Shown here piece after piece: positions 1,408 through 30,287 of a stretch of 64,000 nt of DNA; the first letter of the stretch is position 1, and every line of letters starts with the position of its first letter. The notes below the pieces were generated by a model, which did not search any database, was not told the origin of the DNA, and worked only from the letters and a program-made list of their open reading frames with translations. Source of the stretch: Escherichia phage LHE287; the sequence record PP761450.1; one strand, given 5' to 3'. The position numbers and the translations under genes are program-made.

Positions 1408-3690
1408 TCAGACGATACAACTCTCACAATCAGGTTCCTCAGCCTGTTTCAGCTCTTCGTCTTCCTTGGCGTCTTTGTTTGTGTTGTAATACAGAGTCTT
1501 GCCACCCCACATATAGAACGACAGGATATCCTGCATCATCTTGGCGCGAGGGATCTTGCTGTCAGGGTACTTCTCTGGGTCATACCACGTGTTGGTACTG
1601 ATGGACTGGTCAACCCAGCGCTGGATGACAGCAGCGGTCTTCAGGTACTCAATACAGTCCAGGTCCCACTTGAGGTCATACATCGGCCCAAGGGTCTCAA
1701 CTTCCGGGACGACCTGCTTATAAGTGCCGTCCTTGCTACCCTTGATGCTCACCAAGCCCTTCGGTGGCTCAATGCCGTTCGTTGCGTTGAGGACCTGTGA
1801 GGAGCTTTCGGTAGGGGCTACTGCCAGCAGGGTGGCGTTGCGGATACCATAGGTCTTCAGATTATCCTTCAACTCATCCCAATCCAGCCCATATGCCATC
1901 CCTTCTGGCTTCTTGCCATTTGGTAGGATATCAAGTGGAAGCGGCTGAAGGTCGGCGGTGACCTGCCCATTATTGTGGATGGTTCCGCGTTTACACGCCC
2001 CGAACTTCATAGCCAGACGGTTGGACGCCTTGACCAGATAGAAGTGCAGGTGTGCCATCCACGCATCCAGCATTTCAAGACCAGCTGGTGAGCCATAGCC
2101 CGTGAAGTTCTTGGCCAGGAAGTGAGCCACGTTCACGATACCAACACCCAGAGGACGATAGTCTTCAACAGCTTTACGAGCCTGAATCGCTGGATAGTCC
2201 TGATATTCCAACAGCATGTCCAGCGCAGACACCAACACGAACGCCACGTCTTCCATTTCGGTCGGGTCTTCGAATGCTGTCAGGTTGAAGGAAGCCAGGG
2301 TGCACAGAGCCACGCGCCCGTTTTCATCGTTGTACTGCTCAAACTCACGGGTCGGCAGGGCGATTTCTAAACAAAGATTTGAAGAATAAATCGTGTCTAG
2401 GTTGAATGGACTGTATTCATTCATGTGATCGACAAATGCGATGTAGATGCGGCCTGTGTCCGAACGCTGGTCTAACAGCATCTGGAACACCTCTTCTGCC
2501 TGCAACTTCTTAGCACGAACCAAACCGGCATCGGCGGCCTTGATCATGTTCTCATACAGATTACGGAACTTGTCAACGTCAGCGAAGTATGCTTCATACA
2601 TTTCGCGGTTGTCTTTCGGGTCGAACAGATACAGAGGCTGCTTGGCAACAAGGCGCTCAAACATCACGCGGTTGATCTGAATGCCATAGTCGATACGGCG
2701 TTCGCGGTTTTCTTCAGTACCACGGTTGTTCTTCAGAACAACGACGTCATCGAACTGGTAATGCCACAGAGGGATGTACGCTGTTGCTGCACCACCACGA
2801 ATGCCGCCCTGAGAGCAAGATTTGAGTGCCCCAGTGAGATACTTGATGAATGGGATCAGGCCTGTGTGAACCATCTCTCCGCCGCGAATAGGACTACCAA
2901 TCCCACGGATTGCCCCGACATCGAAGCCGATACCCGCACGTTTGGACACATAGTCAACGATGGTCTTGGCTGTTGCGTTGATAGAGTTCAGGGTGTCATC
3001 AGTCTTGATTAACACACAGGAACTGAACTGACGGGTAGGAGTACGAACACCTGCCATAATCGGGGTGGGAAGACTGAACTTGCCTGTGCTGGCATATTCA
3101 TAGAACTTTTTCACCATCTCCAGGCGGCTGTCTTTGTCCCAGTTAGAGAACAACGCCATGGCGATGCCCATGTACATGACCTGAGGGGTTTCGTAGAAGA
3201 TCTTGCTGTCTTTCTTGGAACGGTCGCACAACAGGTACTTCTCAGTCAGCTGACCCATGGCCGCCCACGTGAAGTTCTTATCGCGTTTGTGATTGATGAC
3301 ATCGTTCAGCTCGTTGAACTCTTCGGTCGTGTAGAGATCAAGGAACTCACGATCATACACGCGCTGTTTGATGTTCTTGACGAAGATGTCCAGCAGGTGA
3401 GGCGGCTTGTACTGACCGTAGACAGCCTTGCGCAGATCATACGACTTCAGACGAGCAGCCACATACTGGTAATTGGGTTTGTCTACAGAGATCAGCGAAG
3501 CCGCAGCCTGGATGAGGATATCCTGAATGCGATCTGTTCTCATGTTGTCGGTGAACTGAATCTTAGATGCAGCGATCACCTCTGACATTGACACACCAGA
3601 CAGGCCATCACATGCGCGGTCTACGACTGCGTGTAGTTTCTCAATATCAAATGGGACAGAAGATCCGTCACGTTTTATAACGTTAATCAT
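1408..3690 (-). CDS. nrdA: class Ia ribonucleotide reductase large (alpha) subunit
   Basis: 760 aa; ATP-cone N-terminus (VIKRDGSSVPFD), active-site NxCxE (SNLCLEIALP), C-terminal CESC redox tail. Confidence 0.9.
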   Translation of the reverse strand: MINVIKRDGSSVPFDIEKLHAVVDRACDGLSGVSMSEVIAASKIQFTDNMRTDRIQDILIQAAASLISVDKPNYQYVAARLKSYDLRKAVYGQYKPPHLLDIFVKNIKQRVYDREFLDLYTTEEFNELNDVINHKRDKNFTWAAMGQLTEKYLLCDRSKKDSKIFYETPQVMYMGIAMALFSNWDKDSRLEMVKKFYEYASTGKFSLPTPIMAGVRTPTRQFSSCVLIKTDDTLNSINATAKTIVDYVSKRAGIGFDVGAIRGIGSPIRGGEMVHTGLIPFIKYLTGALKSCSQGGIRGGAATAYIPLWHYQFDDVVVLKNNRGTEENRERRIDYGIQINRVMFERLVAKQPLYLFDPKDNREMYEAYFADVDKFRNLYENMIKAADAGLVRAKKLQAEEVFQMLLDQRSDTGRIYIAFVDHMNEYSPFNLDTIYSSNLCLEIALPTREFEQYNDENGRVALCTLASFNLTAFEDPTEMEDVAFVLVSALDMLLEYQDYPAIQARKAVEDYRPLGVGIVNVAHFLAKNFTGYGSPAGLEMLDAWMAHLHFYLVKASNRLAMKFGACKRGTIHNNGQVTADLQPLPLDILPNGKKPEGMAYGLDWDELKDNLKTYGIRNATLLAVAPTESSSQVLNATNGIEPPKGLVSIKGSKDGTYKQVVPEVETLGPMYDLKWDLDCIEYLKTAAVIQRWVDQSISTNTWYDPEKYPDSKIPRAKMMQDILSFYMWGGKTLYYNTNKDAKEDEELKQAEEPDCESCIV

Positions 3691-3773
3691 GGTGTTCCTC
3701 GGGTTTGTTTACGCAGGTTTTATTATACGCCGCCCTCGTAGATTGAAGGCGGCAGGGAGGGTTGGTGAGTTAC

Positions 3774-4616
3774 TTAAATGTCGTACAGATCGTTGACTTC
3801 CAGCATCAGGCGGGTGAAGTCGCCGCGCCCGTTGCGGTCAGACTTGTCGAACTCGATGATACTGAACGGCTGAACCCATTCAGGGTACTCATCACCGACG
3901 CCAACACCATCGATCTTCAGGGTTCCGGCCTCCAGCTTGGCGTTGAAGTCGCGGAAGGAACTGACGTACTTTTCAAGGGCGCTGTCGCGCAGGCGCTTGT
4001 TGGACTGTTTGATGTCACCGTTGACAAAGATGTAAGTCGAGTCAGATGCGCGGGTCAGTAGGTTCTTCAGCTGCTCCATATCACATTCCTGCGCTTCTTC
4101 AATGATCAGGAAGGTGTCGTCGAAGGTCATCCCCTTGATGGTCTCCAGATCCTGGATCTCAATAATCCGCTTCTCCCACAGATAGTTGAAGAAACCGTCG
4201 CTACCTGTGTCAGTCTTCAGCACCTTCTTCAGCGTCTGAATCAGGGGCATCAGATATGGCATCAGTTTTTCGTATGTGTCGCCAGGGCGGAAGCCTGCAG
4301 TCTGGCCTGTTGGCAGCGGAGAGCGCGTGATGACGATCTTGCTGACCACTTTATCGATCAGGAGCTTGGCGGCGGCTGAGGCACCACAATACGATTTACC
4401 TGTGCCTGCCGGACCGATTGCGATGGTGAGGTTTTCTTCAAGAGCAGATTGATACGCGAGGTTCTGATTTTCTGAGAGGCCATTGAACGGAGCGATTCTG
4501 AAGTCACCTTTAGAGAACTTCATCCAGTCATCTTCTTTCTGGATTGTCTCTTTCTTACGTGCTGACTTGGTCTTGCCCGCTGGCTTCTTACTTACAACTT
4601 TGGTGGCAGATTGCAT
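3774..4616 (-). CDS. phoH: PhoH-like ATPase
   Basis: 280 aa; Walker A AIGPAGTGKSY; GGAAGG SD. Confidence 0.8.
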   Translation of the reverse strand: MQSATKVVSKKPAGKTKSARKKETIQKEDDWMKFSKGDFRIAPFNGLSENQNLAYQSALEENLTIAIGPAGTGKSYCGASAAAKLLIDKVVSKIVITRSPLPTGQTAGFRPGDTYEKLMPYLMPLIQTLKKVLKTDTGSDGFFNYLWEKRIIEIQDLETIKGMTFDDTFLIIEEAQECDMEQLKNLLTRASDSTYIFVNGDIKQSNKRLRDSALEKYVSSFRDFNAKLEAGTLKIDGVGVGDEYPEWVQPFSIIEFDKSDRNGRGDFTRLMLEVNDLYDI

Positions 4617-6258: not shown

Positions 6259-6288
6259 ATAATAGTGCATCATTATTGAAGAGTAAAG
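6259..6288 (-). promoter_or_regulatory. early-type promoter (-35 CTTTAC, 18 bp, -10 TATTAT) upstream of 5697..6185
   Basis: minus strand reads CTTTACtcttcaataatgatgcacTATTAT; same architecture as repeated cassettes. Confidence 0.5.
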
Positions 6289-6296
6289 TCTTTTTC

Positions 6297-6316
6297 AATA
6301 ATTTTTAAAAATTATT
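6297..6316. repeat. perfect 20-bp A/T palindrome
   Basis: AATAATTTTTAAAAATTATT equals its own reverse complement; between terminator and early promoter. Confidence 0.85.
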
Positions 6317-6319
6317 TTT

Positions 6320-6353
6320 GAAGTATTTTAAAAGGCCTCGTCGAATGAGGCCT
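6320..6353 (-). terminator. rho-independent terminator
   Basis: hairpin AGGCCTC-GTCGAAT-GAGGCCT followed on minus strand by TTTTAAAATAC. Confidence 0.6.
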
Positions 6354-6381
6354 GGAGGGAAGTAATGTGAAGTAAAAAGTT

Positions 6382-6588
6382 TTAGTTCGGGCGAAATCTT
6401 ACAAACTCGCGAGCCAATTCGGCCTGCTCATCACTGATGGGAACCCCATGGAAGTCCGCCTGACCATTCTTCCAGCCGTGGATGAAACTCAGAGACTCTT
6501 CCCCAGATAAGACATACCCCTCACGAGATTTCAAGTACCCCCGCACGATCTCTCCGTCGTCCAGTTTGTTCAGTTCTTCTAACGTCAT
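6382..6588 (-). CDS. hypothetical small protein (68 aa)
   Basis: ATG overlaps the primase stop (ATGA), suggesting translational coupling. Confidence 0.45.
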   Translation of the reverse strand: MTLEELNKLDDGEIVRGYLKSREGYVLSGEESLSFIHGWKNGQADFHGVPISDEQAELAREFVRFRPN

Positions 6589-12520: not shown

Positions 12521-12550
12521 AGTATAGGGAAGGATATTGAAGAAGTAAAG
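12521..12550 (-). promoter_or_regulatory. early-type promoter, cassette copy A (-35 CTTTAC, -10 TATACT)
   Basis: minus strand CTTTACttcttcaatatccttcccTATACT followed by conserved 45-nt leader to ATG 12472. Confidence 0.55.
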
Positions 12551-25345: not shown

Positions 25346-25424
25346 GGCGATTCTCCTTATTTCATTGGATGAAATGATAGGCGGCTCACCATGATGAGTA
25401 AAGGGATTCAATAAACTATCGTAT

Positions 25425-25906: not shown

Positions 25907-26107
25907 TTAGCGCATCCATCGATCCTTTCTCTCTTTCTCCTTGCGTTCGCGACGTTTCTGGTCGGATCGGAATAACCAATAGAAGAAGTTCCCACCCAAG
26001 ATGAAAACCACCGCGATTATTACTAGGACACCCTTCACAATTTCCCAAACCAATTCTTTATCCAAATTATACCTCTTCTTCTTCTTCTTCTTCAGGTCCA
26101 CCGTCAA
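25907..26107 (-). CDS. doubtful small membrane ORF (poly-Lys then TM helix)
   Basis: no ATG start (TTG/GTG only), no SD; overlaps upstream gene across (AAG)6 repeat. Confidence 0.25.
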   Translation of the reverse strand: MTVDLKKKKKKRYNLDKELVWEIVKGVLVIIAVVFILGGNFFYWLFRSDQKRRERKEKERKDRWMR

Positions 26108-26363
26108 TCAGGATACGAGCGGCGTCGAAAGTTTCCCCGCCCGTGTTCAGCAGCTTGGTCAGATCGTCAAGATATCGGACCGTGCCAAGATCAGATGACC
26201 GCGATATGAACTCCAGCATACCATACAACGCTGTTTGGAATCGGCTGTTATCGATATCGTTCTTTATTACCATCAGGCGCAAGATGTTCTCTGACTGAGT
26301 ATGGCCAACACACGCCTTGTCTCTGATCATCTCCTTGATAGAACTTCTCTCTGATGGTGTCAT
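26067..26363 (-). CDS. hypothetical protein (98 aa) with poly-Glu C-terminus
   Basis: ends ...GGPEEEEEEEV encoded by (GAA)6 repeat. Confidence 0.45.
   Translation of the reverse strand: MTPSERSSIKEMIRDKACVGHTQSENILRLMVIKNDIDNSRFQTALYGMLEFISRSSDLGTVRYLDDLTKLLNTGGETFDAARILIDGGPEEEEEEEV
26075..26092. repeat. (CTT)6 trinucleotide repeat, (AAG)6/(GAA)6 on coding strand
   Basis: reads as EEEEEE in one ORF and KKKKKK in the overlapping frame. Confidence 0.85.
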
Positions 26364-26734
26364 AACGTACCCCCGACAGAGATCAAGAACTCTTCTTGCA
26401 TGGTCTTGACCGGGTGGTGGTTGCGGGTTTCGAACATGAAGCCCCAGCCACCGTCGGCGACGTTGCCAAAGGTCTTGACGCCAAAGGACTTCGTCCCGTT
26501 GGAGCAGGAATAGATGTCCAGGACGTATGGGCTACCCTGATTGTCGATCCCACGATTCACGTCGTCTGATACGCAGCGCTCAATCATCTTCCCGTTCTTA
26601 TACAGAACGAGGTCTTGGCCATACGCCTTGAAAGCATAAACACCGTTGGTAGACACTCCGGTGATGACAGGAGGGGCGGAAACAGCAGCAAAGGAAGCGC
26701 CCAGCAGGGCAACAGCGAGGATTAACTTTTTCAT
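26360..26734 (-). CDS. secreted protein (124 aa)
   Basis: ATG 26734; signal peptide MKKLILAVALLGASFAAVSA. Confidence 0.55.
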   Translation of the reverse strand: MKKLILAVALLGASFAAVSAPPVITGVSTNGVYAFKAYGQDLVLYKNGKMIERCVSDDVNRGIDNQGSPYVLDIYSCSNGTKSFGVKTFGNVADGGWGFMFETRNHHPVKTMQEEFLISVGGTL

Positions 26735-26749
26735 GATATAGTCTCTTGG

Positions 26750-26778
26750 TTTCAAATAGACGGGGTAATCATACCCCG
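26750..26778 (-). terminator. rho-independent terminator after 26794..27033
   Basis: CGGGGTA-ATCA-TACCCCG then TCTATTTG on minus strand. Confidence 0.65.
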
Positions 26779-26793
26779 CCCAAAGTTATAGAA

Positions 26794-27033
26794 TTAACTG
26801 ATGTGCTTCAGAAGAGCGAAGAGGATCGCGGCCTTGGCCTTTACCTTTCCTACGATGCCTGTTTCGACATCAACTTCTTCAGCAACCCACTCTTTTCCCT
26901 TCTTGCTGATGATAACGTCACGACGCTGTGCGTAGACTTCTTTGGTCGCATACACACGGCGGAACCCTTTAGCGCGGAGCAATCCCCAATTGCGATCAAT
27001 TTCTACTGAGGTTTCTACCATTTTGTTCTTCAT
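26794..27033 (-). CDS. hypothetical small basic protein (79 aa)
   Basis: own promoter-terminator cassette (copy 1 of 57-bp repeat). Confidence 0.5.
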   Translation of the reverse strand: MKNKMVETSVEIDRNWGLLRAKGFRRVYATKEVYAQRRDVIISKKGKEWVAEEVDVETGIVGKVKAKAAILFALLKHIS

Positions 27034-27084
27034 GATATAATCTTACCTTTCAACCCGGTGAACCCATCGTTCGCCAGTTATTGA

Positions 27085-27114
27085 ATAATACGCATTTACC
27101 TTATAGAAGTAAAC
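27085..27114 (-). promoter_or_regulatory. early-type promoter in 57-bp repeat copy 1 (-35 GTTTAC, -10 TATTAT)
   Basis: minus strand GTTTACttctataaggtaaatgcgTATTAT upstream of 26794..27033. Confidence 0.55.
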
Positions 27115-27118
27115 CCCT

Positions 27119-27149
27119 AAAAGTAAAAATCCCCAACAAACGTTGGGGA
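27119..27149 (-). terminator. rho-independent terminator (repeat copy 1)
   Basis: CCCCAAC-AAAC-GTTGGGG then ATTTTTAC on minus strand. Confidence 0.7.
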
Positions 27150-27166
27150 TTTAATAAAAGTTATGC

Positions 27167-27391
27167 CTATTTAATTTCTCGGCTTGAATTTTCTAGTTCT
27201 AATTTTCTTATAGCGGAAATTCTGCCTTCATCAGTTGCGGGAAACTCCCAAACAGCACGACGCCCATTGTTGGTATCACAACTTGCCAGCCAGCAGAAAT
27301 TAGAGGGGTCCTTAAACAAGACCAACTTCGGATTTCCTAAATTGATGAGGTTAAACGGGGTGAGGTCAACAACACATGATATAGCAGACAT
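27167..27391 (-). CDS. hypothetical small protein (74 aa)
   Basis: flanked by both copies of 57-bp promoter/terminator repeat; GAAGG SD. Confidence 0.5.
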   Translation of the reverse strand: MSAISCVVDLTPFNLINLGNPKLVLFKDPSNFCWLASCDTNNGRRAVWEFPATDEGRISAIRKLELENSSREIK

Positions 27392-27440
27392 AACATATAC
27401 CTTCTTTCAATGAACGGGAACGCCCCGATCTATGAATTCA

Positions 27441-27470
27441 ATAATACGCATTTACCTTATAGAAGTAAAC
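27441..27470 (-). promoter_or_regulatory. early-type promoter in 57-bp repeat copy 2 (-35 GTTTAC, -10 TATTAT)
   Basis: identical to copy 1; upstream of 27167..27391. Confidence 0.55.
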
Positions 27471-27474
27471 CCCT

Positions 27475-27505
27475 AAAAGTAAAAATCCCCAACGTTTGTT
27501 GGGGA
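27475..27505 (-). terminator. rho-independent terminator after ACP-like gene (repeat copy 2)
   Basis: CCCCAAC-GTTT-GTTGGGG then ATTTTTAC on minus strand. Confidence 0.7.
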
Positions 27506-27511
27506 CTTCTG

Positions 27512-27835
27512 TTATTTGCGCAGGGCAACCACGAGTTCAGCGAGTTCACCCATGGTCGGGTCGTCGCCTTTACTACCTAGCCACCCGTCGTCGATTTCGA
27601 CCTGAAACTCTTCTTCGAGGTCCATTACAATTTCGATAGCGTCCAGTTCATCACCGCCGAGGTCTTTCTTGGTACGGAGGCCAGCCAGCTTGTCCAGGGC
27701 GTCCTCGTTCTGAGATGCCACGTCGTCCAGCAATTTGCGCTTGTCATCGTCACGCCACAGATCCATATTCAGATTGTCAGTGGCGTACTGAGCCAGATGA
27801 CGCATGACTTCAACATATGTTGGCTTACTGCTCAT
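27512..27835 (-). CDS. acyl-carrier-protein-like protein with Glu at the phosphopantetheine-site position
   Basis: 107 aa; DLGGDELDAIEIVMDLEEEFQVEID aligns with E. coli AcpP [26 protein letters not shown], with Ser replaced by Glu; GGGAGAAG SD. Confidence 0.7.
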   Translation of the reverse strand: MSSKPTYVEVMRHLAQYATDNLNMDLWRDDDKRKLLDDVASQNEDALDKLAGLRTKKDLGGDELDAIEIVMDLEEEFQVEIDDGWLGSKGDDPTMGELAELVVALRK

Positions 27836-27840
27836 GCTAC

Positions 27841-27870
27841 TTCTCCCAAAGAAAGGCGGGTTGCCCCGCC
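27841..27870 (-). terminator. hairpin between vWA gene and ACP-like gene (attenuator-like)
   Basis: GGCGGG-TTGC-CCCGCC then TTTCTTTGGG on minus strand; only about 20 nt before ACP start, so read-through must occur. Confidence 0.45.
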
Positions 27871-27877
27871 CGTTGGA

Positions 27878-30079
27878 TTAGATTTTGATTTCTTTCTCTG
27901 TCAGTTCGGCAGTGACCTTGTACTTCACGCCATCCACTTCAACTTCCATGGTGGACTCTTCCAGGTCGAGGTCGGTGAACCAGCCGTGGCCAGCAACGAT
28001 ACCATACACCACTTTAGACAGTGTCTTGTTCAGGGCACGGACTTCGGTGATGGCCGCCTTGGCAGCAGCGTCGATCCAGTTTTCGATCAGCTGTTTCTGT
28101 AAGGCTTCAGGCACGGCAGTGATCATAGGAGACTTCACGAATGCTTCGTACTCTTTCAGAGCATTGGCGATGAACAAGTCACCAGCATTGAGTTTCTTGT
28201 TCTCTGCGATCTTCTTCTGTACTGCCGCGATGCTCGGTAGTGAAGACGCCCCGGCGATCTTCACGTTCAGCTCACGGCTCATGTAGAAGTCGGTAGACTC
28301 TTTGGTCTCAGTCTTCGGTGAGAAGCCGTAATCGCGGATGCCGTAGGAGGACAGGAACTCGGCCGCCTCAGCGCCGTACTGTACTGCCAGGCCTTTGGCG
28401 TTACCCTTACCAACCAGGGCGTCTCGATAGAACTTCAGCACCTTCTGCTTGCCTTTCAGGGCTTCCAGACGGACATTATCCGCAAAGAACTGAGCAGCAC
28501 TGATGTTCTTGACCATGGCGCGGTTGACCAGCGGTACGCTTTCCAGGTTCAGGACAAACACTTCCGGGCCACCAAACACGTGGACGCCCATTTCGATCAG
28601 CTTCTGTACAACTTCGATATCAGCCTTGAACGGCAGAGTCTTCACGTTAATGATACCGTCTTTGACGATGGTGTAGTTGCGCCACTGGAAAGTATCCAGT
28701 TCTTCAGGCAGGCCAAACTTCTTCTGTGCGAATTCAGGCACAGCCACAGTACCGTGTTGAATTGTACGCACACTGATGTTCGGGCGCTCGGAGTTATAGA
28801 CCAAATCACTGATTGGCACAACACCCAGATCGTTGGTAGGTTCGAACGTCGGGTTCCACTCTTCGTGTTCTGCCAGCTTGAGAGCCAGGGCTTTACGCTC
28901 TTCTTTGGACTGAGCATTCGCGATCTGTTCTGCCAGCTTGTCTTCGGTGTCGTCGGTTTTCTGCACAGTACCGCGCCCGATACTCTTATAGGAGAACATC
29001 GGATGCTTGGTAGCAACAGGTACACCAGCTTCAGCCAGGTACGTCAGCACATCAACGACGGTGGTCGCATCTTCAGCCGGAACCAGGTCATAGTCAATAC
29101 CGTCAACGCCGCGCAGCTGGTCGTCAACAATCGCCTGAACCAGATCGTTCTTGATGTTGGAGTAGTCCTGCTTGGTGAAGCAGTTGCTGTACTGTTTGAT
29201 GAAGCGAACGTCGCCCGTCTTCTTCAGCGCAGCCCAAACCAGATCTGCGTCCATAGTGTGTACACCGTAGAACGCCAGCACGTATGCCGCCTGGATGTCC
29301 GTCAGGCTATCCATCTGGTCGATCATGTTAGGGTTTACAACCCACAGCTTGGTGACGCTCTCAGGGATGCTCACATAGCCGACCGGGTGAGAGTCATCGT
29401 CCTGCACCGCCAGTACTGTTGCCACACCGTTTTCGACGTAGATGGCATGGGTGTAGATGACTGGGACATCAACTTTCACCTTCGGCACTGATGACTTCAG
29501 CACGTTTTCCAGTTCGGTCTGGTATTCGGTCTGACCTTCGGCAAACACATGAGTCGCGCCAGAGCGCTCGGACATCAGAGCCAGCAGTTCGCGGTTACAG
29601 TGCCAGCCGTATTCGATGAAAGTAATGTTATCGAACGCAGAAGGCAAGGTTTCGGCGACGGCCAGGATTTCGTTTGAGCGCCAGCAGTTGTCATAACCAT
29701 CGGTCATGAATGCCAGGTTGTTGACGTAACCAGGTTTCTTCAGGTCACGCGCAGTATCCATCGCCAGTTTCAACGGCTCAACGAAGCCAGTACATCCGGA
29801 CGGTTGCAGGAAGCGATCGATCAGTTTGTTCAGCTCGCTCAGGTCAGACGCAGCACTAACCTGGCGGCCAGCGAACACAGTACCAAAGTCGCCTTTGGAG
29901 GAGAAATACAGAACGCTCACAGTGTCTTCCGGTTTCACCAGGGAAGGCAGGTTCTCCTTCAGATGCTTACGGACTTCAGGGAGCGCACGGTACATAGAGC
30001 CGGAAATGTCTACAACGATTACATGGTTGGACGGGGTAGCAGTCGCAACCGCATTCTTAAATTCTAATGATTCAATCAT
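27878..30079 (-). CDS. large protein with N-terminal von Willebrand factor A domain
   Basis: 733 aa from ATG 30079; MIDAS motif VVDISGSM plus downstream T and D (FMTDGYDN); rest unassigned. Confidence 0.7.
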   Translation of the reverse strand: MIESLEFKNAVATATPSNHVIVVDISGSMYRALPEVRKHLKENLPSLVKPEDTVSVLYFSSKGDFGTVFAGRQVSAASDLSELNKLIDRFLQPSGCTGFVEPLKLAMDTARDLKKPGYVNNLAFMTDGYDNCWRSNEILAVAETLPSAFDNITFIEYGWHCNRELLALMSERSGATHVFAEGQTEYQTELENVLKSSVPKVKVDVPVIYTHAIYVENGVATVLAVQDDDSHPVGYVSIPESVTKLWVVNPNMIDQMDSLTDIQAAYVLAFYGVHTMDADLVWAALKKTGDVRFIKQYSNCFTKQDYSNIKNDLVQAIVDDQLRGVDGIDYDLVPAEDATTVVDVLTYLAEAGVPVATKHPMFSYKSIGRGTVQKTDDTEDKLAEQIANAQSKEERKALALKLAEHEEWNPTFEPTNDLGVVPISDLVYNSERPNISVRTIQHGTVAVPEFAQKKFGLPEELDTFQWRNYTIVKDGIINVKTLPFKADIEVVQKLIEMGVHVFGGPEVFVLNLESVPLVNRAMVKNISAAQFFADNVRLEALKGKQKVLKFYRDALVGKGNAKGLAVQYGAEAAEFLSSYGIRDYGFSPKTETKESTDFYMSRELNVKIAGASSLPSIAAVQKKIAENKKLNAGDLFIANALKEYEAFVKSPMITAVPEALQKQLIENWIDAAAKAAITEVRALNKTLSKVVYGIVAGHGWFTDLDLEESTMEVEVDGVKYKVTAELTEKEIKI

Positions 30080-30287
30080 TGTTCTCTTCGCCTTGTGCGT
30101 AAGGGTTAAGTTCAGACTCATCAGCGGCTTCGATGCGCGTCTTTACAGAGTCCAGCATATTGTTGATAAATTCACGAGACTGCTCCAGCTGAGCCAAGAG
30201 CACATCCTTTGGAGCATAGTTCTGAATGCAAGCCGGAATACTTTCAGACGTCGCCTTCAGGTCGGTAAAACATTCTTTCAGTATCAT
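30072..30287 (-). CDS. hypothetical small acidic protein (71 aa)
   Basis: stop 5 nt before vWA ATG; weak SD. Confidence 0.4.
   Translation of the reverse strand: MILKECFTDLKATSESIPACIQNYAPKDVLLAQLEQSREFINNMLDSVKTRIEAADESELNPYAQGEENND

What the first reader, a model, noticed from the sequence alone, without database searches (positions are those of the whole stretch)
27081..27505. Tandem duplicated early promoter plus terminator cassette bracketing a 74-aa gene
Two 57-bp direct repeats (one mismatch) each contain a terminator hairpin (CCCCAAC-loop-GTTGGGG, with the loop inverted between copies) followed by GTTTAC-18-TATTAT. They create two consecutive monocistronic units for unrelated small proteins (74 aa and 79 aa), immediately downstream of the ACP-like gene. 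Identical regulatory DNA around divergent coding sequence points to recent cassette shuffling.
Basis: seen in the sequence. Interest (0 to 1): 0.5.

Follow-up and report, generated by a model that had tools for sequence, protein, structure and literature searches.

The report
Repeated terminator-promoter cassette flanking phage gene
A small accessory gene of an Ackermannviridae phage sits between two near-identical copies of a "stop transcription, then restart" DNA cassette; related phages show that this repeat pair is where the gene is lost, swapped and copy-corrected, an ordinary but cleanly resolved case of a mechanism already described in T4-like phages.

Summary
Two direct repeats (27080-27152 and 27436-27508; 54-nt exact core) each carry a stable hairpin plus U-tract followed by GTTTAC-N18-TATTAT (equivalently TTTACT-N17-TATTAT). 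They bracket a 74-aa ORFan (g74) between an ACP-like gene and a 79-aa gene on the minus strand.

The window is an AV101-like Ackermannviridae phage. About 240 of about 271 related genomes lack g74. The closest backbone relative, AV101, lacks exactly one repeat unit plus g74 (356 bp) and keeps one intact cassette.

The hexamers and their spacing are the same in 37 cassette copies, while the spacer occurs in at least 5 sequence types. That pattern fits a promoter.

The near-identity of the two copies in this window is derived. A metagenome contig matches the window across 548 nt except for one base and a 15-nt patch of 10 changes in the downstream spacer. This points to a 15-54-nt gene conversion.

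The g74 module is 97.5% identical to that of Kuttervirus KE31, whose flanks are 74-88% identical, so it moved laterally. The hairpin loop (AAAC/GTTT) flips repeatedly among close relatives.

The closest known kind is the PeSL terminator/promoter cassette of T4-like phages. This one is locus-specific, with two copies rather than many dispersed ones. Promoter and terminator activity are untested. Interest is modest.

The parts
27512..27835 (-). ACP-like gene (107 aa), the upstream neighbour; its stop codon lies 1 nt before hairpin T1
   Evidence: PHROG 4154 'acyl carrier protein', E 2.6e-57. Pfam PP-binding 24.7 bits against a cut-off of 20.8.
27471..27510 (-). T1: intrinsic-terminator-like hairpin (13-bp stem 27481-27510, loop AAAC on the RNA strand at 27494-27497) followed by AUUUUUACUUUU
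   Evidence: RNA fold -18.5 kcal/mol, z = -6.0, 0 of 200 shuffles as stable. Inverted repeat I1.
27441..27470 (-). P1: GTTTAC (27465-27470), 18-nt type-A spacer, TATTAT (27441-27446); equivalently TTTACT-N17-TATTAT. Predicted start about 27433-27435.
   Evidence: The hexamers and spacing are the same in all 37 copies examined. It matches the T4/PST PeSL promoter consensus TTTACW-N17-TAYWAT (PMC4122927).
27392..27440 (-). 5' leader of g74, with GAAGG Shine-Dalgarno
   Evidence: Sequence. It is homologous to the leader that precedes g74, or g79 directly, in Taipeivirus phages.
27167..27391 (-). g74: 74-aa accessory ORFan, function unknown
   Evidence: PHROG 22629, unknown function, E 1.7e-44. 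No Pfam or PADLOC hit. Found in 31 of about 271 related phage records. AF2 model is beta-beta-beta-beta-alpha, pLDDT 85; the only significant fold match is its Magnus orthologue.
27326..27356 (-). About 30-nt patch inside g74 with 12 differences from ZQ1, SW16-7, SNUABM02, CAU_YEP3 and pertopsoe; shared with KE31 and with the metagenome contigs that encode the identical protein
   Evidence: Alignment; contigs.
27115..27152 (-). T2: terminator-like hairpin (11-bp stem 27127-27152, loop GUUU at 27138-27141) followed by UUUUUACUUUU
   Evidence: RNA fold -16.3 kcal/mol, z = -5.55, 0 of 200 shuffles as stable. Flagged by the terminator scan.
27085..27114 (-). P2: GTTTAC (27109-27114), 18-nt type-A spacer, TATTAT (27085-27090). 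Predicted start about 27077-27079. Drives g79.
27091..27105 (-). Minimal gene-conversion tract (maximum 27084-27137): 10 substitutions relative to contig L043 that make the P2 spacer identical to the P1 spacer
   Evidence: across 27016-27563 the only other difference from L043 is at 27266.
26794..27033 (-). g79: conserved 79-aa gene downstream of the second cassette
   Evidence: PHROG 804, E 1.3e-29. Present in all relatives examined.
27080..27152 (.). Direct-repeat copy 1 (downstream cassette)
   Evidence: nhmmer cassette profile E = 1e-21.
27436..27508 (.). Direct-repeat copy 2 (upstream cassette)
   Evidence: nhmmer cassette profile E = 1.7e-23.

Best explanation
Each repeat is a composite regulatory cassette. 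[quoted passage not shown] Transcription coming from the ACP-like gene stops at T1. Host RNA polymerase restarts at P1 and makes a g74 mRNA of about 315 nt that ends at T2. It restarts again at P2 for g79. This makes g74 an insulated, self-sufficient, moron-like unit. Because the two cassettes are direct repeats, they are also substrates for the phage's homologous recombination. Three outcomes follow. (i) Crossover between them deletes g74 plus one repeat unit and leaves one intact chimeric cassette. (ii) Short-tract gene conversion homogenises them; this is what made the two copies in this window almost identical. (iii) The conserved cassettes and neighbouring genes serve as homology arms for exchanging the g74 module between Ackermannviridae lineages. 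The palindromic stem additionally allows the 4-nt loop to invert. Shown here: the repeat, hairpin stability, constancy of hexamers and spacing over variable spacers, the exact repeat-bounded indel, the conversion patch, the phylogenetic incongruence, and the loop flips. Inferred: promoter and terminator activity, early timing, and the recombination mechanisms themselves.
For: Hairpins fold at -18.5 and -16.3 kcal/mol (z = -6.0 and -5.6), each followed by a U-tract. Among 37 cassette copies (29 unique sequences) from Kuttervirus and Aglimvirinae genomes or contigs, [G/C]TTTAC and TATTAT with 18-nt spacing never change, while the spacer has 15 variants in at least 5 types, with pairwise identity as low as 22%. 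The same hexamers are annotated 'putative early promoter' in LIMEstone1. They fit the T4/PST PeSL promoter consensus. g74 is present in 31 records and absent from about 240. AV101 has 98-99% identical flanks and lacks exactly 356 bp, one repeat unit plus g74. Single-cassette genomes are chimeric in two different ways: Marshall has a type-A spacer joined to the g79 leader, while AV101, LIMEstone1 and SKML-39 have type B. This implies independent events. Contig L043 differs from the window across 548 nt by 1 base plus a 15-nt patch of 10 bases that matches the window's own upstream spacer. KE31's g74 module is 97.5% identical to the window's, while its vWA gene is 74-80%, its ACP gene 82-84% and its g79 87-88% identical. 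In Det7 both cassettes carry the same B' spacer, which indicates concerted evolution.
Against: There are no transcript or reporter data for any Ackermannviridae phage in the searched literature. The hexamer constancy is partly circular, because copies were located with a hexamer pattern; however, every expected junction in the 28 non-Taipeivirus genomes had one. In Taipeivirus the same slot is polymorphic (g74, a different 81-aa ORF, or empty) without a second cassette or the CCCCAAC hairpin, so repeats are not needed for cargo exchange there. The left end of the tract shared with KE31 lies in the conserved 3' half of the ACP gene, not in the cassette. The type-A downstream spacer could have been imported from another phage rather than copied from within the genome.
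Confidence: 0.7

Rival explanations
1. Passive duplication. An ancient tandem duplication of the ACP-g79 intergenic region left two regulatory copies that are kept alike only by selection on promoter and terminator function. Gain, loss and exchange of g74 proceed through ordinary homologous recombination in the flanking genes, and the repeats play no special role.
For: Taipeivirus phages swap or lose g74 without flanking repeats. The left boundary of the tract shared by KE31 and the window is inside the ACP gene. The cassette is locus-specific rather than a dispersed family.
Against: Selection on function does not explain identity of the spacer, which varies freely between genomes yet is identical within the window, KE31, L042 and Det7. 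The deletion in every single-cassette genome examined removes exactly one repeat period and leaves one intact cassette, with two different chimeric forms.
Confidence: 0.15
2. Imported allele. The type-A downstream spacer in this window was acquired by recombination with another phage that carried A at that position (Marshall/Maynard-like or KE31-like), not by conversion from the window's own upstream copy.
For: Marshall (17/18) and KE31 (18/18) carry an A-type spacer joined to the g79 leader. Inter-genus exchange at this locus is demonstrated.
Against: An 18/18 donor sits 356 bp away in the same molecule. Sequence on both sides of the 15-nt patch is identical to L043, so an external donor would have had to contribute only 15-54 nt. 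The A-plus-g79-leader alleles of the other phages themselves need an origin, most simply the same conversion or a crossover.
Confidence: 0.25
3. Protein-binding or site-specific recombination site. The 26-nt palindrome AAATCCCCAAC-N4-GTTGGGGATTT is an operator or a recombinase or nuclease target, and loop inversion is enzyme-mediated.
For: It is a perfect 11-bp palindrome placed about 15 nt upstream of the -35. The loop is found in both orientations.
Against: It lies directly after stop codons and is followed by a U-tract, as an intrinsic terminator is. No recombinase or regulator gene is adjacent. Other Kuttervirus genomes replace the stem with a different GC-rich palindrome (CCCCAATAATTATTGGGG) at the same place, so structure rather than sequence is conserved. 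The profile finds no further copy in 64 kb.
Confidence: 0.05

Closest known systems
PeSL (promoter-early stem-loop) cassettes of T4-like phages (Arbiol et al. 2010, PMC2839356; Comeau et al. 2014, PMC4122927)
   Same: [quoted passage not shown] Both lie between the stop codon of one gene and the SD/start of the next. In both, an ORFan is flanked by two copies in one phage and replaced by a single chimeric copy in a close relative (the RB49 ORF192 vs phi1 case). The promoter fits the T4/PST PeSL consensus TTTACW-N17-TAYWAT.
   Different: Only two homologous copies per genome, both at one locus, against about 50 dispersed PeSLs in phi1 and RB49. The host phage belongs to the Ackermannviridae, not the T4-like group in which PeSLs were defined. 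No paper in the searched library links PeSLs to this family. Promoter and terminator activity and mini-circles are not demonstrated here.
Morons of lambdoid phages (Hendrix/Juhala concept; from my own knowledge, not checked in a paper here)
   Same: One extra gene with its own promoter upstream and terminator downstream sits between two genes that are adjacent in relatives. Its G+C is lower than that of its neighbours (41.8% vs 52.8% and 47.9%; 6% of 225-nt windows are as low).
   Different: Morons are defined in temperate phages and are typically expressed from the prophage for the host's benefit. This phage is virulent, and the promoter looks like a lytic early promoter. Here the regulatory elements are duplicates of the resident ones.
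T4 early promoters (Hinton 2010, PMC2988021)
   Same: Strong sigma70-type -35/-10 elements with AT-rich upstream sequence, used by unmodified host RNA polymerase immediately after infection. The LIMEstone1 authors assigned this promoter to the early class by similarity to T4.
   Different: There is no TGn extended -10, and the -10 is TATTAT. Timing has not been measured in any Ackermannviridae phage.
Minute hairpin-loop inversions (known from plastid non-coding DNA) and quasipalindrome template-switch mutation (T4 rII, E. coli); both from my own knowledge
   Same: The loop is replaced by its exact reverse complement while the stem stays intact, and the change recurs among close relatives. AAAC/GTTT are seen at both cassettes, and the 5-nt pair AAACC/GGTTT occurs in other Kuttervirus genomes.
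   Different: I do not know of this being described for phage terminators. The rate and mechanism are not measured here.

Membership tests
PeSL (T4-like phage promoter-early stem-loop cassettes) | sigma70-like -35 and -10 hexamers with about 17-nt spacing | tested here: met
   TTTACT-N17-TATTAT occurs twice. It fits the PST/T4 PeSL consensus TTTACW-N17-TAYWAT.
PeSL (T4-like phage promoter-early stem-loop cassettes) | Stable stem-loop within or next to the promoter, including the subclass with the stem-loop upstream of the -35 in the AT-rich region | tested here: met
   The hairpins are 13 and 11 bp, -18.5 and -16.3 kcal/mol, z about -6, ending about 15 nt upstream of the -35. PeSL subclasses are described.
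PeSL (T4-like phage promoter-early stem-loop cassettes) | Intergenic position, from the upstream stop codon to the SD/start of the downstream gene, usually an ORFan | tested here: met
   g74 has no known function.
PeSL (T4-like phage promoter-early stem-loop cassettes) | Associated with indels between close relatives: gene flanked by two cassettes vs a single chimeric cassette | tested here: met
   The window differs from AV101 by a 356-bp indel. Single cassettes are chimeric (A or B spacer).
PeSL (T4-like phage promoter-early stem-loop cassettes) | Many copies (about 50 per genome) dispersed through hyperplastic regions | tested here: not met
   An nhmmer profile of 29 unique copies finds only the 2 copies in 64 kb (next best E = 0.9). 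Non-carrier genomes have a single blastn place. Three other, non-homologous hairpin-plus-TTTACT-N17-TATNNT composites exist in the window (6259-6287, 12521-12549, 25374-25402), so the architecture recurs but this sequence family does not.
PeSL (T4-like phage promoter-early stem-loop cassettes) | Demonstrated promoter and terminator activity; excised mini-circles | not testable with these tools
   This needs reporter assays, transcript end mapping and outward-facing PCR on lysates.
PeSL (T4-like phage promoter-early stem-loop cassettes) | Host phage is a T4-like myovirus | tested here: not met
   The window is 97.6% identical to Escherichia phage AV101 (Ackermannviridae, Aglimvirinae).
Moron | An extra gene with its own promoter and terminator between genes that are adjacent in relatives | tested here: met
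   (sequence level only).
Moron | Carried by a temperate phage and expressed from the prophage | tested here: not met
   The cassette has no match in 5,426 complete E. coli genomes. All relatives are virulent Ackermannviridae isolates.
Rho-independent (intrinsic) terminator | GC-rich stem-loop immediately followed by a U-rich tract, downstream of a stop codon | tested here: met
   Termination itself was not assayed.

The most novel reading that the evidence does not exclude
The cassette pair is an active excision and re-integration module, a PeSL-type system outside the T4-like phages. In this reading, recombination between the repeats releases g74 mini-circles during every infection. These re-enter other Ackermannviridae genomes at their single resident cassette, which would account for the spread across subfamilies. 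The terminator palindrome would be a structure-prone hotspot, through cruciform formation or template switching, that both flips its loop and initiates the exchanges.
Probability: 0.2. Interest if true: 0.5.

Novelty: new member of a known kind. Interest (0 to 1): 0.3.

Why it matters
It extends the PeSL idea, that regulatory cassettes double as recombination sites for shuffling accessory genes, from T4-like phages to the Ackermannviridae. This family is widely used for biocontrol and phage engineering, and its transcription signals are essentially undescribed: a 2024 family review contains none of the words promoter, terminator or transcriptome.

The locus also shows three micro-evolutionary processes at base resolution in one 430-bp stretch: repeat-bounded gene loss, a 15-54-nt conversion tract, and hairpin-loop inversion.

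In practical terms, the slot tolerates several different cargoes (g74, the Gloob/P46FS4 62-aa ORF, the EspM4VN/L039 79-aa ORF, the 0507-KN2-1 81-aa ORF). It also supplies its own promoter and terminator. That makes it an obvious landing site for engineered payloads, with the warning that perfect 54-nt repeats should make inserts unstable.

Tried and rejected
- **Rfam:** a scan of 26000-28500 at E <= 1 gave nothing, so the hairpins and leaders are not a known RNA family.
- **PADLOC and Pfam on g74, g79 and g124:** no hits.
- **g74 homologue search in 5.8 billion proteins:** only 3 clusters, all in the same locus context.
- **g74 structure:** the AF2 model gave no significant PDB match. The best was E = 0.58 (RadD, with PUR-alpha and Whirly-like folds also listed), which I do not treat as evidence. 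BFVD matched only the Magnus orthologue.
- **Exact-pattern scans:** IMG/VR gave 5 loci and JGI metagenomes gave 1 locus. Neither showed a new cargo between two cassettes.
- **ACP-based locus search in IMG/VR:** 11 loci, useful only for additional cassette alleles.
- **Host origin of the cassette:** rejected, with no match in complete E. coli genomes.
- **Second small hairpin enclosing the -35 in type-B cassettes** (annotated as a terminator in LIMEstone1): it is not more stable than shuffles (z = -1.35), so I do not rely on it.
- **Generic promoter/terminator scan of 20-36 kb:** not enriched over shuffles (15 vs 13.6 and 15 vs 14.0), so consensus matching alone carries no weight here.
- **Assembly artefact:** rejected, because the same two-cassette structure occurs in more than 20 independently sequenced genomes.

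Full report
**1. What is in the sequence**

All genes in this part of the window run on the minus strand. The order is a 747-aa vWA-domain protein (27878-30121), an ACP-like 107-aa protein (27512-27835), a 74-aa ORF (g74, 27167-27391), a 79-aa ORF (g79, 26794-27033) and a 124-aa ORF.

The repeat finder returns one outstanding direct repeat, 27080-27152 and 27436-27508, 356 nt apart and 67/73 identical. A base-by-base comparison gives a 54-nt exact core (27084-27137 = 27440-27493). There is one mismatch just outside the core (27083/27439), four mismatches that are the hairpin loop, and one more at 27150/27506. Strings of 23-30 nt taken from the repeat occur twice in the window against zero in 100 shuffles.

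On the coding strand each copy reads: hairpin CCCCAAC-N4-GTTGGGG, then ATTTTTACTTTTAGGG, then GTTTAC-N18-TATTAT, which is equally TTTACT-N17-TATTAT. The loops, AAAC after the ACP gene and GUUU after g74, are exact reverse complements. g74 and g79 are unrelated (E = 6.2).

**2. Whose genome this is**

The 6 kb around the site is 97.6% identical to Escherichia phage AV101 (Ackermannviridae, Aglimvirinae). It matches 281 phage records, essentially all Ackermannviridae: Kuttervirus, Agtrevirus, Limestonevirus and Taipeivirus.

**3. Whether the elements are credible signals**

Both hairpins are far more stable than shuffled controls: -18.5 and -16.3 kcal/mol, z = -6.0 and -5.6, with 0 of 200 shuffles as stable. 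Both are followed by AUUUUUACUUUU and lie directly after stop codons. This is the anatomy of an intrinsic terminator.

A generic consensus scan is not enriched over shuffles in this region, so the promoter argument has to be comparative. I collected 37 cassette copies (29 unique) from 28 Kuttervirus and Aglimvirinae genomes and contigs.
- [G/C]TTTAC, TATTAT and the 18-nt spacing never vary.
- The spacer has 15 variants in at least five unrelated types, with pairwise identity as low as 22%.
- Fixed hexamers and distance over a free spacer is what a sigma70 promoter predicts.
- Caveat: copies were located with a hexamer pattern. However, every expected junction had one.

The LIMEstone1 GenBank record annotates exactly these hexamers as a 'putative early promoter'. 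It is one of five early promoters assigned by similarity to T4. The motif equals the T4/PST PeSL promoter consensus TTTACW-N17-TAYWAT. No transcript data for this family turned up, so activity and timing are inferred.

**4. Repeat-bounded presence and absence**

The 1,051-bp locus matches 271 phage records, and only 23 cover it fully. tblastn finds g74 in 31 records: 23 Salmonella, Escherichia or Yersinia phages and 8 Klebsiella phages.

The closest backbone relatives, AV101 and YX22, lack it. In the alignment AV101 is missing window positions 27142-27497. That is exactly one 356-bp repeat period, and it leaves one complete cassette.

Within the 95-97% identity clade only the window and ZQ1 carry g74. 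Carriers are scattered through Kuttervirus and Aglimvirinae at every depth. The cassette itself is present in 219 records, at one place in non-carriers and at two in carriers. It is absent from 5,426 E. coli genomes.

**5. Cassette alleles and chimeric singles**

In most carriers (ZQ1, SW16-7, SNUABM-02, CAU_YEP3, pertopsoe, L027, L039-41, L043, L044) the two cassettes differ. The upstream cassette has spacer A (TTCTATAAGGTAAATGCG-like) joined to the g74 leader. The downstream cassette has spacer B (TTCCTCTAAGGAATGTCC-like) joined to the g79 leader.

Single-cassette genomes come in two chimeric forms. Marshall/Maynard have A plus the g79 leader. AV101, LIMEstone1, SKML-39 and others have B plus the g79 leader. 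These are the products expected from crossovers at different points within the repeat, which argues for several independent events. Det7 has the same B' spacer in both copies. The window, KE31 and contig L042 have A in both. Paralogous copies within a genome are thus sometimes more alike than orthologous copies between genomes, which is concerted evolution.

**6. Why the two copies are nearly identical here**

Five assembly contigs encode exactly the window's g74 protein. One of them, L043, is collinear with the window. Between 27016 and 27563 (548 nt) it differs at only two places:
- one base at 27266;
- ten bases clustered at 27091-27105, the downstream spacer, which is B in L043 and A in the window.

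The A sequence is 18/18 identical to the window's own upstream spacer. The downstream copy's loop (27138-27141) and the mismatch at 27083 keep the downstream state, so the tract is 15-54 nt long.

It is not the footprint of a recent insertion of g74.

**7. Lateral exchange**

KE31 (Kuttervirus) compares with the window as follows:

| Segment | Identity to the window |
|---|---|
| vWA gene | 74-80% |
| ACP gene | 82-84% |
| g79 | 87-88% |
| Upstream cassette | 98.7% |
| Leader plus g74 | 97.5% |
| Downstream cassette, apart from the flipped loop | 100% |

Its ACP and g79 genes are the most divergent of all carriers, yet its g74 module nests among the Aglimvirinae-type modules. On the right, the shared tract ends between the -10 box and about 27055. 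On the left, it ends inside the conserved 3' half of the ACP gene. Inside g74, a patch of about 30 nt (27326-27356) with 12 differences is shared only by the window, KE31 and the metagenome contigs. The locus is a fine-grained mosaic.

**8. Age of g74 at this site**

Det7's g74 module is 77-81% identical to the others, similar to its flanks at 82-88%. Taipeivirus phages such as Magnus carry a 79%-identical protein at the same position. g74 is therefore old at this locus, and most absences are losses.

In Taipeivirus there is no CCCCAAC hairpin and no second cassette.
- In Magnus, g74 stops 5 nt before g79.
- 0507-KN2-1 has the same promoter and leader but an unrelated 81-aa ORF.
- May has the leader directly on g79.

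The slot is therefore polymorphic even without repeats. This limits how much of the plasticity can be credited to the repeats themselves.

**9. Loop inversion**

Loop orientation varies independently of everything else:
- after the ACP gene: AAAC in the window, AV101, ZQ1 and KE31; GTTT in pertopsoe, Marshall, SKML-39 and Gloob;
- after g74: GTTT in the window, L040-43 and L027; AAAC in KE31, ZQ1, L039 and pertopsoe.

Near-identical pairs differ: window vs KE31, L039 vs L040, P46FS4 vs Gloob, and pertopsoe vs L027 at both hairpins. A 5-nt loop class also exists in both orientations (AAACC and GGTTT). No intermediates are seen, so these are inversions rather than point changes. They fit recombination or template switching between the palindromic arms.

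**10. The g74 protein**

g74 belongs to a PHROG of unknown function, with no Pfam or PADLOC hit. Only three homologue clusters were found in 5.8 billion proteins. Synonymous changes match or outnumber non-synonymous ones (14/7 vs pertopsoe, 19/17 vs Det7). Protein identity to Magnus (79%) exceeds nucleotide identity (76%). It is therefore a real gene.

The AF2 model is beta4-alpha with pLDDT 85, but the other four models score 58-64. It has no significant PDB match and matches only its Magnus orthologue in BFVD. Its G+C is 41.8%, against 49.5 ± 4.4% for windows of the same length.

**11. Comparison with known systems**

The closest kind is the PeSL of T4-like phages. It is a composite of a strong sigma70-like early promoter and a stem-loop terminator, preferentially upstream of ORFans, and it mediates indels by recombination between copies. 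The published example is RB49 ORF192, flanked by two PeSLs, against a single chimeric PeSL in phi1.

- Met here: promoter, stem-loop, AT-rich upstream region, intergenic placement and the indel signature.
- Not met: being a dispersed multi-copy family. An nhmmer profile finds only the two copies in 64 kb, and non-carriers have one place per genome.
- Other differences: the host is not a T4-like phage, and activity and mini-circles cannot be tested here.
- Related architecture elsewhere: three other, non-homologous hairpin-plus-TTTACT-N17-TATNNT composites occur in the window.

g74 also fits the structural definition of a moron, but not the temperate-phage part of that definition. No paper in the library links PeSLs with Ackermannviridae.

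**12. Verdict**

It is best described as a locus-specific, PeSL-like terminator/promoter cassette pair. It makes g74 an insulated early unit and serves as substrate for deletion, gene conversion and inter-lineage exchange.

It is a new member of a known kind, and the interest is modest. Its value lies in how cleanly the events can be resolved and in its use as an engineering site.

Noticed in passing
window 27138-27141 and 27494-27497; L013, L032-L034: The terminator loop exists as AAAC or its reverse complement GTTT at both cassettes, in combinations that differ between near-identical genomes (window vs KE31, L039 vs L040, pertopsoe vs L027). A 5-nt loop class also occurs in both orientations (AAACC in phage 241, GGTTT in L032-34). 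This is recurrent hairpin-loop inversion, which I have not seen described for phage terminators.
   Followed up: partly
L012 (Magnus) 780-1140; L037 (0507-KN2-1) 540-1210; L038 (May) 560-700: In Taipeivirus the same slot holds g74, an unrelated 81-aa ORF (MEQLLPESV...), or nothing. All three sit behind one identical promoter and leader, with no second cassette and no CCCCAAC hairpin. Cargo replacement there runs exactly from the start codon to the g79 start.
   Followed up: partly
L004 (Gloob) 640-828; L005 (EspM4VN) 650-889; L013 (phage 241) 1246-1485; L039 3359-3598: A second variable position lies between the downstream cassette and g79. It holds a 62-aa ORF (MKDYIMIM...) or a 79-aa ORF (MKLPGH...), each coupled to g79. 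These ORFs are unrelated to g79 and are sometimes present together with g74 (L039, phage 241).
   Followed up: partly
window 26360-26734 and the equivalent position in L015, L007, L003: The gene after g79 is also variable. The window, AV101 and ZQ1 have a 124-aa ORF with a signal-peptide-like N-terminus. KE31, Det7 and SNUABM-02 have a 507-nt gene annotated 'RNA polymerase ADP-ribosylase'. LIMEstone1 and EspM4VN annotate DenV there. The whole stretch downstream of the ACP gene behaves like a hyperplastic region.
   Followed up: no
window 12521-12549, 6259-6287, 25374-25402 (all minus strand): There are three further TTTACT-N17-TAT(T/A/C)(A/C)T sites, significantly more than shuffles give. At 12.5 kb a GGGGC-TTTT-GCCCC hairpin runs straight into the -35, and at 6.3 kb a GGCCTC...GAGGCC hairpin plus a long AT-rich tract lies upstream. 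The architecture is the same as the cassette but there is no sequence homology to it.
   Followed up: partly
window 27326-27356 (inside g74): A patch of about 30 nt with 12 substitutions (protein PFNLINLGNPK vs PFCLNNIANPK) is shared only with KE31 and the metagenome contigs. It is flanked by sequence where the window instead groups with ZQ1 and SW16-7. This is micro-mosaicism inside a 225-nt gene.
   Followed up: partly
GenBank MH709121 (SenALZ1), OL964737/OL964753 (selz), MN871504 (SeTs-2), MH709120 (SenASZ3); contigs L040, L042, L044: Several deposited genomes start within or next to this cassette: the cassette match is at record positions 1-58, or g74 is at positions 34-284. Three metagenome contigs end about 185 nt after g74. 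This suggests that assemblies tend to break here because of the repeat and/or strain heterogeneity.
   Followed up: no
L015 (KE31) 3621-4091; L016 (ZQ1) 3245-3722 and 6282-6452; L017 (SW16-7) 3245-3722: Annotation slips in relatives. KE31 has a plus-strand 'hypothetical protein' called over the ACP-like gene, which is itself unannotated. ZQ1 and SW16-7 do not annotate g74. ZQ1 labels a 56-aa ORF upstream of the vWA gene 'putative acyl carrier protein'.
   Followed up: no
window 27035-27085 (g79 leader) and 27392-27441 (g74 leader): Both leaders begin TT(C/G)AAT and end TTGAAAG(G/A) around a GC-rich internal hairpin. For the g79 leader this folds at -14.1 kcal/mol, z = -3.4. This may be a 5' stabilising stem-loop and a faint extension of the homology between the two units.
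   Followed up: no
window 27854-27871 (minus strand): A terminator-like hairpin, GGGCGGGGCAACCCGCC followed by TTTCTTT, lies between the vWA gene (a confirmed virion protein in LIMEstone1) and the ACP-like gene. It is annotated as a terminator in Marshall and LIMEstone1. The ACP gene has no obvious promoter of its own.
   Followed up: no
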